From positions 1-64,000 of IMG/VR virus record IMGVR_UViG_3300010403_000001: 64,000 nucleotides of DNA. One strand, 5' to 3'. A program made the translations under genes and the position numbers. The DNA comes from a virus. The notes beneath the pieces were generated by a model. That model saw only the letters and a list, made by a program, of their open reading frames with translations, was not told where the DNA came from and ran no database searches. This document shows, in pieces, positions 14,495-16,456 of the stretch (positions are counted from its first letter, which is position 1; every line of letters starts with the position of its first letter).

Positions 14495-16456
14495 TTACTT
14501 ACCTTCATCAACAGCGATAAATGAAGGTGCTCGGAGTGCGCCGCTGGGGTATTTACCCTGGTGGCGCACTCGTGCCGTTCGTCCGACATATTTCTCCAGA
14601 TCCCTGCGGGTTTCATCTGTGAATCCGGTGCCTACTTTTCCGATAGTGCGTCCACTAGAATCAGCGTAAGTGAAACCACCAGGAGCTCCGTGAAATTTAC
14701 CAGTGCCAGGAAATGTGCCGGCGATCTTAACATTAGCCTCCTTCGTATGTTTAACCTTAATCATTTTACCATCAGATGGATGAATTATCACGCCCTCCTT
14801 CGTCAGGGGATGACGACCTGACCGCACTTTCTCATACAATCGAAGAGCTGCGGAAGGGGATTTGGCTTCTTCAGGAGCATGGAATGTGCTCCTTGGCAGA
14901 TGTGTCAAAGTTTCTTTTACTTTTGCAAGCCGCTCGGGATAAGGTCCTTTATCTCCGGCGACATCAAAAGGCATCACTTTCAACTTCACCCCGGAAGCCT
15001 TCTGCTTCCGAATAGATTCACCAATATGACTATTCAAAATACCAGACAGATCTTGTGGTGGAATACTCTTCCCCCGCACTTTACCATAGAGTTCACCTAT
15101 CAGCGTCCGCTGGTGCTCTCGTGGTATGTCTATTGTGGGCCTTCCCCGGAAGACCCTTTCAGTGTGAACGGGATGCGTTCCCGTTGTCTTGCTAACACGA
15201 TGGCTCAGGATCTCAGGACGACCTCCTGCAGTACTTACGTAGACCAACGCACCATCAACCTTGGGCTGAACCGATGAACCTGATTCTAACCTTGATAAGT
15301 ATCCCTTCGCTTCTGATGGCGATAGTGATTTCGCAGCTGGTTTATGTGCTCCTTCTGGCGGTTGCACTGGTTGCGCTTTTGTGTGTAGCCATCCGGCTTT
15401 GGTTTTTATAAATGCCAGGCGATGTGATCCCTTGCGATCCGATAGTGTCGCATGTAGCTCGCCTGGCGTACTCTTTGTGACCAGGGCTTTACCCAGGTCT
15501 TCACTCTTTACTGTCCCGGCACCATAGCCGGATGGTATCTCCCCTTCCCATCCGAGGTAGCTATGTCGGTGGGTGGGTTGTTGGTGGATGGCGATTTTCT
15601 GTCCATGAGCTGGTAGATCTTTCCTGGTTGCCCATGAGAGCAGTCCATGGTGGCGATTGCCAATTCGCACATCCCTATGTAGTCCTGCTCGTTTGGCGTG
15701 ATGTTGCTGGACATTGTAATCGAGAAGCTCACCTTCTTTGAATACTGGAAGTTCTTGTGGTGGTTCATCTACTGACGTTGGTTGATGTAATTTTTTTTTA
15801 TCCGAAAATTGGATCAGGTCATCCAGTATCACCGTAAATTCACCAATGGTCTTACCCTTCATACCACGGAACGGCCAAACCTTATTGCTGCGGAGTAACT
15901 TTACCTTCTGGGCTAAATTACTTGCGGCGAGGGTGCCATATGGTGGAACCAAGGCTTTGAATCGTTTACCTCTTTCAAGCGGCGATGTTAGACCGGGTGG
16001 AAGCGCAAGAAATCCTGCCCTGGAAATATCGTGGTATTTAGTCACAGGTGCATGGTGTAACCATTTCGCAGTCCTGAATGCGATCTTAGCACCTCGATTA
16101 GGATTGTTGGCGAACTCAATCAGGTCATCCAATATGGCGATCAATTCTTTCTCGAACACCCTGGCACGAACGGTCTTTTCACCTTTTTCTTTCTTAGCAA
16201 CGATCCGGTGGTTCCCGTCCTCCACGAAATATTTTCCACCAATTTTGTGAAGCATTGGTAAATCACGGCCGGGCTTCTTCTTATATTCCTCTACGATATG
16301 CCGCTTTACCGCATTCTGGTGTGAGACAATTTTACTAATGGGAATCTTCTGAACCTTGGACTTTACATCCTCTGGATATAGAGGGTTGTCCTCCCATTTG
16401 ACCGTCTTGAACTGGATTAGATTATCCAGCAGATTAGTAATCTGGGTGATCGCCAT
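14495..16456 (-). CDS. Polyprotein: ParB/Srx-like domain + basic module + LigD-type 3'-phosphoesterase + ATP-dependent DNA ligase
   Basis: YFVEDGNHRI (ParB-like); VQQHHAKRAGLHRDVRI..SWA..HRHSYLGWEGEIPSGYGAGTV (LigD PE); QPKVDG, EGVI, KVK and VGTGFTD (ligase + OB fold); three LD(N/D)LI(Q/E)F junctions. Confidence 0.85.
   Translation of the reverse strand: MAITQITNLLDNLIQFKTVKWEDNPLYPEDVKSKVQKIPISKIVSHQNAVKRHIVEEYKKKPGRDLPMLHKIGGKYFVEDGNHRIVAKKEKGEKTVRARVFEKELIAILDDLIEFANNPNRGAKIAFRTAKWLHHAPVTKYHDISRAGFLALPPGLTSPLERGKRFKALVPPYGTLAASNLAQKVKLLRSNKVWPFRGMKGKTIGEFTVILDDLIQFSDKKKLHQPTSVDEPPQELPVFKEGELLDYNVQQHHAKRAGLHRDVRIGNRHHGLLSWATRKDLPAHGQKIAIHQQPTHRHSYLGWEGEIPSGYGAGTVKSEDLGKALVTKSTPGELHATLSDRKGSHRLAFIKTKAGWLHTKAQPVQPPEGAHKPAAKSLSPSEAKGYLSRLESGSSVQPKVDGALVYVSTAGGRPEILSHRVSKTTGTHPVHTERVFRGRPTIDIPREHQRTLIGELYGKVRGKSIPPQDLSGILNSHIGESIRKQKASGVKLKVMPFDVAGDKGPYPERLAKVKETLTHLPRSTFHAPEEAKSPSAALRLYEKVRSGRHPLTKEGVIIHPSDGKMIKVKHTKEANVKIAGTFPGTGKFHGAPGGFTYADSSGRTIGKVGTGFTDETRRDLEKYVGRTARVRHQGKYPSGALRAPSFIAVDEGK

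What the first reader, a model, noticed from the sequence alone, without database searches (positions are those of the whole stretch)
14495..16456. LigD-like end-healing and sealing enzyme inside the head module, apparently as virion cargo
Seen: a ParB-like domain, a LigD-type 3'-phosphoesterase and an ATP-dependent ligase lie in one ORF. The ORF is co-oriented with head genes, has three LDxLIxF tags and is in the late region, not the replication region. Established: the LigD PE domain heals 3' ends in bacterial NHEJ. No Ku gene or LigD polymerase domain was recognised in the window. Inference: the enzyme is injected with the genome to circularise it, or to repair restriction or CRISPR breaks before any gene expression.
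Basis: partly seen in the sequence, partly recalled or inferred. Interest (0 to 1): 0.8.

Follow-up and report, generated by a model that had tools for sequence, protein, structure and literature searches.

The report
Phage head-module DNA heal-and-seal cargo enzyme
An uncultured 80-kb phage encodes, among its capsid-assembly genes, one protein that joins a ParB-like domain, a DNA-end-cleaning enzyme and a DNA ligase, each preceded by a short address-like peptide shared with neighbouring head proteins, so it is probably loaded into the capsid and delivered with the DNA, although nobody has shown this.

Summary
ORF 14495-16456 (minus, 653 aa) contains a ParB/sulfiredoxin-type domain, an unassigned helical module, a LigD-type 3'-phosphoesterase (PE) and an ATP-dependent ligase. 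All catalytic residues are intact. The ligase is of the minimal Lig E/OB_2 type, not the LigD type. The genome has no Ku, no LigD polymerase and no other ligase.

The three "tags" are copies of an 11-residue amphipathic motif, L-[S/N]-[A/S]-x-L-D-D-L-I-[E/Q]-F. In the whole 79.7-kb genome it occurs only in four adjacent genes between portal and prohead protease.

In about eight independent relatives, the tagged PE-ligase sits in the same portal-to-protease interval. All tagged forms make one well-supported clade. Untagged distant homologues lie elsewhere, and many are fused to domains typical of polyvalent proteins (SNF2, NUDIX, InPase, 2H, GNAT, peptidoglycan hydrolase).

The best reading is a capsid-targeted, probably protease-processed cargo enzyme. 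Packaging, cleavage and the substrate are all inferred, and no cultured relative exists.

I found no description of a PE-ligase cargo in the papers searched. This scan has noted similar head-module PE-ligase polyproteins in at least eight other genomes. Verdict: a new variant of a known kind (polyvalent or internal head proteins).

The parts
14495..16456 (-). Whole 653-aa ORF: tag - ParB/Srx - tag - helical module - tag - PE - ligase
   Evidence: The start ATG lies 1 nt after the TGA stop of upstream ORF 16458-17051.
16409..16441 (-). Tag copy 1 (aa 6-16, ends at F16)
   Evidence: PSSM score 17.5. Predicted helix 2-13.
16145..16387 (-). ParB/sulfiredoxin-superfamily module (aa ~24-104, DGNHR box)
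   Evidence: Profile A3 against PDB: SbnI 4.8e-5, sulfiredoxin, ParB. Pfam ParBc_2 and PF23719 in members. The module recurs in 900-4600 aa proteins.
16112..16144 (-). Tag copy 2 (aa 105-115, ends at F115)
   Evidence: PSSM score 32.0. Predicted helix 103-117.
15839..16111 (-). Basic helical module of unknown function (aa 116-206)
   Evidence: No family hit. No relatives beyond the 95% variant. Low pLDDT.
15806..15838 (-). Tag copy 3 (aa 207-217, ends at F217), directly before the PE-ligase core
   Evidence: PSSM score 22.7. The position before LYQP/PE is conserved in the whole clade.
15371..15784 (-). LigD-type 3'-phosphoesterase domain (aa ~225-362)
   Evidence: 3p4h at E 4.3e-13. TIGR02777 at 3.3e-9. 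H252, H260, D262, R264, H296 and Y300 are conserved. pLDDT above 90.
14762..15304 (-). Ligase nucleotidyltransferase domain (aa ~385-565; K399 in KVDG)
   Evidence: phrog_114 at 1.3e-23. Foldseek hits to Lig E and T4 ligases. K399, D401, G402 and E455 are invariant.
14507..14761 (-). Ligase OB domain, OB_2 type (aa 566-650)
   Evidence: PF14743 at 1.1e-9, 38.5 bits against a cut-off of 28.
16458..17051 (-). Upstream, translationally coupled glycine-rich/basic 197-aa protein carrying one tag (LSAKLDAIINF)
17055..17555 (+). Small HEYGH zincin-like protein on the opposite strand, conserved at this place in relatives
   Evidence: No Pfam hit.
17518..21765 (-). 1415-aa head-module protein with degenerate [LIV]-x-F sites and a copy of the capsid-protein N-terminus
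24976..26811 (-). Portal protein (lambda family)
   Evidence: PF05136 at 4.6e-26
10590..12055 (-). Two further tag-bearing small proteins (205 aa and 282 aa, two tags each)
8442..9761 (-). Prohead protease (assemblin/T4 gp21 fold) fused to a coiled-coil scaffold; N-terminus carries a conserved E-I-x-F
   Evidence: Atlas look-alikes Peptidase_S77 at 0.96. AF2 model plus Foldseek to HCMV protease and T4 gp21 5jbl, prob 0.98-1.0, E about 7e-3. F9 is 91% and F166 is 97% conserved.
7044..8021 (-). Major capsid protein
   Evidence: phrog_1005 at 1.1e-27

Best explanation
The ORF is a modular head-cargo (polyvalent-type) protein. It is made late with the head proteins. One or more copies of an 11-residue amphipathic leader (L-S-A-x-L-D-D-L-I-E/Q-F) take it into the assembling procapsid. 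It is probably cut after the invariant Phe into separate modules: a ParB/Srx-type NTPase/nuclease-like domain, a basic helical module and a PE-ligase. The cutter would be the phage's assemblin-fold prohead protease or, less likely, the neighbouring zincin. The PE-ligase is a catalytically competent heal-and-seal enzyme. The Mn-dependent PE would remove 3'-phosphates or 3'-ribonucleotides, and the Lig E-type ligase would seal the resulting nick or cohesive break. Delivered with the genome, it would mend breaks or seal ends in the incoming DNA before any phage gene is expressed.

Shown: the domains, the intact active sites, the distribution of the tag, and the conserved head-module synteny.

Inferred: packaging, cleavage at the tag, ejection, and the substrate.
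For: Domains and catalytic residues are confirmed. The essential PE residues His42/His48/Asp50/Arg52/His84/Tyr88 (PMC3300020) align with the conserved H252/H260/D262/R264/H296/Y300.

The tag is confined to four adjacent genes between portal and protease. Eight PSSM hits of 10.9 or more fall there, against two weak ones in the rest of the 79.7-kb genome.

In relatives at 52-98% identity (L001/17, L002, L003/4/21, L010, L016, L018, L019, L020, L022) the tagged PE-ligase lies among tag-bearing genes next to portal, the 1415-aa protein, the zincin, protease-scaffold and capsid homologues. In L003 the order is one unbroken co-linear operon.

All 18 tagged sequences fall in one clade of 24 with SH-aLRT 100. 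The six apparent exceptions are truncated gene calls or carry a degenerate V-I-Q-F, V-Q-F or H-E-F before the core.

Minimal forms are Met plus about 9 residues plus the tag plus PE-ligase. Longer forms add unrelated modules, each preceded by a tag.

The protease's own N-terminus carries a conserved E-I-x-F, like the EIKF, EIQF and EIRF sites in the 1415-aa protein.

Seventy proteins of 1144-2913 aa contain the PE-ligase core. Many are fused to SNF2, InPase, 2H-SAK, NUDIX, GNAT, C39 peptidases, glucosaminidase or LysM. These are the domain set of phage polyvalent proteins, which are predicted to be packaged (PMC5512222).

The ParB module also occurs in Stenotrophomonas phage DLP3 gp2, encoded between portal and protease. 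DLP3 gp2 was detected in particle proteomics with 8 unique peptides (PMC7326821).

The genome has no PolA, PolB, NAD-dependent ligase, Ku or LigD-POL. This is its only ligase, and it lies outside the replication genes.

Precedents for N-terminal capsid-targeting leaders are T4 IPIII and P1 DarB, whose gene lies beside portal and protease (PMC9024508).
Against: There is no expression, proteomic or biochemical data for this phage or any relative. No cultured phage among 50,697 records has the PE-ligase fusion.

The full 11-mer is absent from portal, capsid, decoration and protease-scaffold proteins. It is therefore not the general maturation site one sees in T4.

The DLP3 authors themselves warned that gp2 could be a contaminant.

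The zincin has no family hit.

In this phage, plus-strand cassettes interrupt the head operon right after the gene, so co-transcription with downstream head genes is not assured.

The N-terminal 220 residues are modelled with low confidence.
Confidence: 0.55

Rival explanations
1. The enzyme works in the producing cell and is not delivered. The tags tether a late ligase to proheads or the packaging vertex, where it seals nicks and cleans 3' ends in concatemeric DNA so that packaging is not arrested.
For: It is the phage's only ligase and sits with the head and packaging genes. The tag implies association with head components but does not by itself imply ejection. From memory and not checked here: T4 packaging is sensitive to nicks and to ligase mutations.
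Against: The tag is shared with glycine-rich/basic small proteins and a 1415-aa protein that look like internal or ejection proteins. Fusion partners of the core elsewhere (peptidoglycan hydrolase, NUDIX, InPase, GNAT, SNF2) are effector-like, not packaging-related.
Confidence: 0.2
2. It is an ordinary phage replication or recombination ligase that happens to lie in the late region. The repeated motif is a linker, or binds some unrelated partner such as a chaperone or host factor.
For: It is the only ligase in the genome. Distant untagged PE-ligases lie near DNA polymerase, UvsX-like recombinase and helicase genes.
Against: The phage has no recognisable DNA polymerase, so it probably relies on the host replisome and host LigA. 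The motif occurs only in head-module genes, sits at N-termini and module junctions, and co-varies with the head-module position across the clade.
Confidence: 0.1
3. The payload repairs RNA rather than DNA. PE plus ligase would heal and seal tRNAs or other RNAs cut by host anticodon nucleases or similar defences.
For: Distant PE-ligases are often fused to 2H-SAK phosphoesterases, which act on 2',3'-cyclic phosphates. One long form carries an RNA_ligase Pfam hit (P0348). LigD PE acts on 3'-ribonucleotide ends (PMC3300020).
Against: The sealing domain is a DNA-ligase-family NTase with an OB_2 domain. It is closest to the Lig E and T4/T7-type DNA nick-sealing enzymes. This phage's protein has no 2H or kinase module.
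Confidence: 0.1

Closest known systems
Polyvalent proteins of phages and conjugative elements (Iyer, Burroughs, Anand, de Souza, Aravind 2017; PMC5512222)
   Same: Several unrelated effector domains on one chain. Encoded among late/virion genes of portal-terminase phages. A ParB/Srx-type domain. A zincin-like peptidase in or near the protein. Predicted packaging and delivery with the DNA. Partner domains InPase, 2H, NUDIX, GNAT and SNF2 appear in relatives.
   Different: That paper does not mention LigD and mentions ligases only as ATP-grasp RNA ligases, so I saw no LigD PE or DNA ligase among the domains it describes. It describes no recurring junction or leader motif. Here the modules are delimited by a conserved 11-mer ending in Phe.
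Capsid-targeting leaders of T4 internal proteins (IPIII CTS) and the P1 DarB N-terminal 30-residue signal (PMC9024508)
   Same: A short N-terminal peptide shared by cargo proteins. Cargo genes lie beside the portal and prohead-protease genes. The payloads act against host defences.
   Different: The sequence is unrelated. Here the leader also recurs internally between modules. The payload is a DNA end-repair enzyme. Nothing has been tested experimentally.
Bacterial DNA ligase D (PE-LIG-POL, works with Ku in NHEJ; PMC3300020, PMC7470946)
   Same: A PE domain with the full set of essential residues, placed N-terminal to an ATP-dependent ligase as in Pseudomonas LigD.
   Different: No POL domain and no Ku in the genome. 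The ligase is OB_2/Lig E-like, not LigD-type: TIGR02779 scores 16 bits against a cut-off of 228.
Lig E minimal ATP-dependent ligases (PDB 4d05, 6gdr, 8u6x)
   Same: Best sequence and fold matches. A compact NTase plus OB_2 core without a DNA-binding domain.
   Different: Lig E carries a periplasmic signal peptide and stands alone (PMC7470946). Here the core is fused behind PE and tagged modules. It scores below the NCBIfam PRK09125 cut-off.
Staphylococcal phage 80alpha capsid and scaffold leaders cleaved at F|A by Prp (PMC5744158)
   Same: Non-homologous head proteins share a 13-14 residue N-terminal leader that is cut directly after Phe.
   Different: The protease there is a host cysteine protease, and no Prp homologue is in this genome. 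The residue after the cut is not fixed here. The leaders here are also internal.
Stenotrophomonas phage DLP3 gp2, 'ParB-like nuclease domain protein' (MT110073; PMC7326821)
   Same: A homologous ParB module (37% identity, E 1e-4). The gene lies between portal and serine protease. It was detected in particle proteomics.
   Different: No PE-ligase and no LDxLIxF tag was examined. The authors considered contamination possible.

Membership tests
LigD 3'-phosphoesterase (PE) superfamily | Significant sequence match to PE domains | tested here: met
   3p4h at E 4.3e-13 and 3p43 at 1.5e-7. TIGR02777 at 3.3e-9, below its equivalog cut-off. PF13298 is precomputed on most homologues.
LigD 3'-phosphoesterase (PE) superfamily | Essential residues His42, His48, Asp50, Arg52, His84, Tyr88 (PaePE numbering, PMC3300020) | tested here: met
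   H252, H260, D262, R264, H296 and Y300 align. They are invariant or at least 90% conserved in 51 homologues.
LigD 3'-phosphoesterase (PE) superfamily | [quoted passage not shown] | not testable with these tools
   Needs an enzyme assay.
Bacterial LigD (NHEJ ligase) | Primase-polymerase (POL) domain in the protein or genome | tested here: not met
   PF21686 gives no match in the 79.7-kb genome.
Bacterial LigD (NHEJ ligase) | Ku partner | tested here: not met
   PF02735 gives no match in the genome.
Bacterial LigD (NHEJ ligase) | LigD-type ligase domain (TIGR02779) | tested here: not met
   16.1 bits against a cut-off of 227.75. The best matches are Lig E-type ligases.
ATP-dependent DNA ligase, OB_2 / Lig E-like minimal type | NTase motif I KxDG and the other nucleotidyltransferase motifs | tested here: met
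   K399-V-D-G. K399, D401, G402 and E455 are invariant; R420 and K569 are at least 90% conserved.
ATP-dependent DNA ligase, OB_2 / Lig E-like minimal type | OB_2 domain above the Pfam gathering score | tested here: met
   PF14743 scores 38.5 bits against 28. Foldseek finds 4d05 and 6gdr at E about 3e-14.
ATP-dependent DNA ligase, OB_2 / Lig E-like minimal type | Stand-alone protein with an N-terminal periplasmic signal (Lig E proper) | tested here: not met
   The ligase is the C-terminal part of a 653-aa multidomain protein.
ParB/sulfiredoxin superfamily | Profile match to the ParB/Srx fold and the DGxHR box | tested here: met
   Profile A3 hits SbnI at 4.8e-5, sulfiredoxin at 5e-3 and ParB at 1e-2. 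G66, H68 and R69 of the module are conserved.
ParB/sulfiredoxin superfamily | Membership of the DdrB-like ParB subfamily of polyvalent proteins | not tested
   No model of that subfamily was at hand. Members match PF23719 and ParBc_2.
Phage polyvalent proteins | Two or more unrelated effector domains in one chain, in a late/virion gene context | tested here: met
   ParB/Srx plus PE plus ligase, encoded between portal and protease.
Phage polyvalent proteins | Associated processing peptidase (MPTase or other) | tested here: inconclusive
   An HEYGH protein lies next door and is conserved in L003 and L019. It has no Pfam hit and shows no BLAST relation to the HExxH modules in P0015-17.
Phage polyvalent proteins | Packaged in the virion and delivered | not testable with these tools
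   Only indirect evidence: DLP3 gp2 proteomics.
CTS-type head cargo (T4 IPs, P1 DarB) | Short leader shared by several head-module proteins | tested here: met
   Eight copies in four adjacent genes here. The same holds in relatives.
CTS-type head cargo (T4 IPs, P1 DarB) | Leader removed by the prohead protease at a site also used in capsid or scaffold proteins | tested here: inconclusive
   The 11-mer is absent from portal, capsid protein, decoration and protease-scaffold. Only [LIV]-x-F is shared, with the protease N-terminus (E-I-x-F, F9 91% conserved).
CTS-type head cargo (T4 IPs, P1 DarB) | Leader sufficient to load a reporter into capsids | not testable with these tools
   Needs an experiment.

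The most novel reading that the evidence does not exclude
A lineage of soil phages uses a dedicated, cleavable amphipathic address peptide to load enzymes into the capsid. One standard payload is a ready-to-use DNA heal-and-seal enzyme (3'-phosphoesterase plus ligase, possibly pre-adenylated). It enters with the genome and repairs nuclease damage or seals the ends before any phage gene is expressed. This would be a counter-defence strategy that repairs the damage rather than evading it, not described for phage virions in the literature I could search.
Probability: 0.35. Interest if true: 0.85.

Novelty: new variant of a known kind. Interest (0 to 1): 0.62.

Why it matters
Phage-delivered proteins are known to block or evade host defences. 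If the reading is right, this adds repair of the incoming DNA as a delivered function. It would extend the LigD-type end-healing chemistry from bacterial end joining to virus entry.

The tag is short, conserved and modular. It defines a testable capsid-loading address and gives a way to recognise cargo genes in uncultured phages. The PE-ligase core recurs in at least 70 giant multi-enzyme phage proteins, so the question concerns a widespread, unstudied enzyme family rather than a single curiosity.

Tried and rejected
- The whole ORF has no nucleotide match in 50,697 phage records. tblastn of the PE-ligase core finds only weak ligase-domain matches, and no cultured phage has the fusion.
Contexts therefore came from the search for related loci only.
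- The genome-contig scan gave one distant hit and no host.
- Pfam and PHROGs gave nothing for most neighbouring genes or for the zincin.
- Peptidase_S78, Peptidase_S77 and Prp HMMs found nothing in the genome. The protease call rests on fold and Atlas look-alikes.
- I tested whether the helical module (aa 116-206) is a shuffled copy of the first module of P0003. BLASTP gives E 0.25, which is collinear but not significant.
- I tested whether the HExxH modules in P0015-17 are related to the window's zincin. No BLAST support.
- A sliding-clamp or SSB-type interaction motif was considered and rejected. The motif also sits on non-enzymatic glycine-rich head-module proteins, at N-termini.
- Promoter and terminator scans were no better than shuffles.
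- DNA-level repeats at the tags are short and diverged. Conservation is therefore at the protein level and does not reflect recent duplication.
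Full report
**What is there**

The window is the first 64 kb of a 79,711-bp virus record. ORF 14495-16456 on the minus strand encodes 653 residues.

Residues 247-361 match the archaeal LigD-type 3'-phosphoesterases 3p4h (E 4.3e-13) and 3p43 (1.5e-7). They also match NCBIfam LigD_PE_dom at 3.3e-9.

The residues essential in Pseudomonas LigD PE are His42, His48, Asp50, Arg52, His84 and Tyr88 (PMC3300020). They correspond to H252, H260, D262, R264, H296 and Y300, which are invariant or at least 90% conserved in 51 homologues.

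Residues about 385-650 are an ATP-dependent DNA ligase:
- phrog_114 at 1.3e-23.
- DNA_ligase_OB_2 above its Pfam cut-off.
- Motif I is K399-V-D-G, with K399, D401, G402 and E455 invariant.

By sequence and by fold the ligase is closest to the minimal Lig E ligases 4d05 and 6gdr, not to LigD ligases. An AlphaFold model places residues 225-650 at pLDDT above 90.

The N-terminal module (about residues 24-104, DGNHR box) matches Pfam only weakly on its own. A profile of 44 relatives reaches the ParB/sulfiredoxin-fold proteins SbnI, free serine kinase, sulfiredoxin and ParB, and Pfam ParBc_2.

Residues 116-206 are a basic helical module with no detectable relatives.

**The tags**

The three LDxLIxF strings end at F16, F115 and F217. 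Forty-one distinct instances collected from homologues show an 11-residue motif: L-[S/I/N]-[A/S]-x-L-D-D-L-I-[E/Q]-F. Hydrophobic residues sit at -10, -6, -3, -2 and 0, and nothing is conserved after the Phe. Each copy in this protein is predicted as a helix.

A scoring matrix was built without this protein. It finds eight hits of 10.9 or more in the whole genome. All eight lie in four adjacent minus-strand ORFs: 10590-11207, 11207-12055, 14495-16456 and 16458-17051. Elsewhere there are two weak hits (9.7 and 8.2), and codon shuffles of the window give 0-5 hits at 8 or more.

Portal, capsid, decoration and protease-scaffold proteins do not carry the 11-mer.

**Context**

The gene lies between these head genes, all on the minus strand:
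- A lambda-family portal at 24976-26811 (PF05136).
- A 439-aa protein at 8442-9761. Its N-terminal domain has the assemblin/T4 gp21 prohead-protease fold, and its C-terminal part is long helices typical of a scaffold.
- A small presumed decoration protein.
- The major capsid protein at 7044-8021.

The start codon lies one base after the stop of a tag-bearing glycine-rich protein.

The genome lacks Ku, a LigD polymerase domain, an NAD-dependent ligase, PolA and PolB. This ORF is its only recognisable ligase. The terminase and helicase genes lie elsewhere.

**Relatives**

A protein search found 72 homologues of similar length and 70 much longer ones. Viral and metagenome scans gave 70 loci.

Every locus whose PE-ligase is at least 52% identical places it among tag-bearing genes next to homologues of this phage's portal, 1415-aa protein, zincin, protease-scaffold and capsid protein. 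There are about eight independent lineages of this kind. In the 79-kb relative L003 the order is one unbroken co-linear block: portal, 1423-aa protein, (zincin on the opposite strand), 232 aa, 110 aa, PE-ligase, 123 aa, 231 aa, protease-scaffold, decoration, capsid.

Homologues below 46% identity have neither the tag nor these neighbours. Those examined lie near DNA polymerase, UvsX-like, helicase, terminase and RNA-polymerase-like genes.

In a quick maximum-likelihood tree of the PE-ligase core, all tagged sequences fall into one clade of 24 (SH-aLRT 100). The six untagged members are truncated calls, or they carry V-I-Q-F, V-Q-F or H-E-F directly before the conserved LYQP start of the core. 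The irreducible feature is therefore [LIV]-x-F.

Minimal proteins are Met plus about nine residues plus the tag plus PE-ligase. Longer ones add ParB, glycine-zipper, HExxH or unknown modules, each preceded by a tag.

**Cleavage or docking**

The same [LIV]-x-F appears as a conserved E-I-x-F at residues 6-9 of the protease-scaffold protein, in its disordered N-terminus (F9 is 91% conserved). It also appears as EIKF, EIQF and EIRF in the 1415-aa neighbour. A further nearly invariant Phe (F166) ends the protease fold before a disordered linker.

This fits a protease that cuts after Phe and trims itself, as T4 gp21 does (the T4 behaviour is from memory). There is also precedent for F| cleavage of shared head-protein leaders in phage 80alpha (PMC5744158).

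The long conserved helix upstream of the Phe is more than a protease normally needs. It resembles a docking or targeting peptide such as the T4 IPIII or P1 DarB signals (PMC9024508).

I therefore read the tag as a targeting helix that ends in a cleavage site. Both halves of that reading are inference. The neighbouring HEYGH protein could be the processing enzyme instead, as proposed for polyvalent proteins (PMC5512222). It has no family match.

**Link to polyvalent proteins**

The ParB module recurs in proteins of 900-4600 residues. One carries Phage_Mu_F, and another carries NUDIX plus an ADP-ribosyltransferase.

The PE-ligase core recurs in giant proteins with SNF2, InPase (PF18823), 2H-SAK, NUDIX, GNAT, C39-type peptidases, glucosaminidase and LysM. 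This is the repertoire described for phage polyvalent proteins, which are thought to be packaged and injected (PMC5512222). That paper does not mention LigD, and it mentions ligases only as ATP-grasp RNA ligases.

The one cultured phage with a detectable ParB-module relative is Stenotrophomonas phage DLP3. It encodes the module between portal and protease, and the protein was found in particle proteomics, with a caveat about contamination.

**What remains open**

Nothing shows when the gene is expressed, whether the protein is in virions, whether it is cut, or what it acts on.

The circularisation idea cannot be judged. The record's 123-bp terminal repeat lies inside an ORF that runs off the end of the record, so it is probably an assembly overlap and the real ends are unknown.

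A role in the producing cell (nick sealing for packaging), an ordinary ligase role, or RNA repair cannot be excluded.

**Novelty**

The general strategy of tagged, processed head cargo or polyvalent proteins is known. The payload (LigD-type PE fused to a Lig E-type ligase), the tag, and the tag's use as a module delimiter were not found in the papers I could search.

Earlier follow-ups of this same scan reported comparable head-module PE-ligase polyproteins, with other junction motifs, in at least eight other genomes. I did not re-examine those.

Noticed in passing
window 12141-14493 and 21958-24536 (plus strand): Plus-strand gene cassettes interrupt the minus-strand head operon in this phage. 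One ends 1 nt from the stop of the focal ORF. The relative L003 has the same head genes in an unbroken block without them.
   Followed up: partly
window 17055-17555 (+): A small HEYGH...EEDFCETF zincin-like gene lies on the opposite strand and overlaps the 3' end of the 1415-aa ORF by 38 nt. It is conserved at the same place and orientation in L003 and L019. No Pfam hit.
   Followed up: partly
window 11055-11087 (+) and 15797-15829 (+): The antisense strand of tag-coding DNA also translates to a tag-like peptide (LPCEFDQLIQF, FIRKLDQVIQY). These are scoring artefacts, not genes.
   Followed up: no
genome ends (window 1-123 equals G000 79589-79711): The 123-bp 'direct terminal repeat' of the record lies inside an ORF that runs off the record's end. 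It is probably an assembly overlap of a circular or permuted genome, not a physical end.
   Followed up: partly
window 17518-21765 (-) and L003, L002, L016 homologues: The giant head-module protein begins with a copy of the capsid protein's N-terminus (MFNTT[DE]SVPRA). The copy is kept in diverged relatives.
   Followed up: partly
P0233, P0247, P0266: Homologues of the protease-scaffold protein occur in a Chthoniobacter MAG, in a 6.2-Mb contig of Opitutaceae bacterium TAV1, and in a Planctomycetia MAG. This hints at Verrucomicrobia or Planctomycetes as hosts and at prophage relatives.
   Followed up: no
L024, L025, L054 and P0312-P0346: 2H-SAK phosphoesterase domains are fused directly to the PE-ligase core in many distant homologues. 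The 2017 polyvalent-protein paper reported no association of its 2H domains with (RNA) ligases.
   Followed up: no
P0308, P0343: The PE-ligase core is fused to an RNA_pol_Rpb1_2 (PF00623) domain in 1237-aa and 2395-aa proteins. These are possibly virion RNA-polymerase fusions.
   Followed up: no
window 24976-26811 (-), portal N-terminus: A conserved V-x-[GS]-F-F at residues about 22-26 appears in the window, L002 and L003 portals. It lies near where the lambda portal is trimmed (from memory). It is possibly another Phe cleavage site.
   Followed up: no
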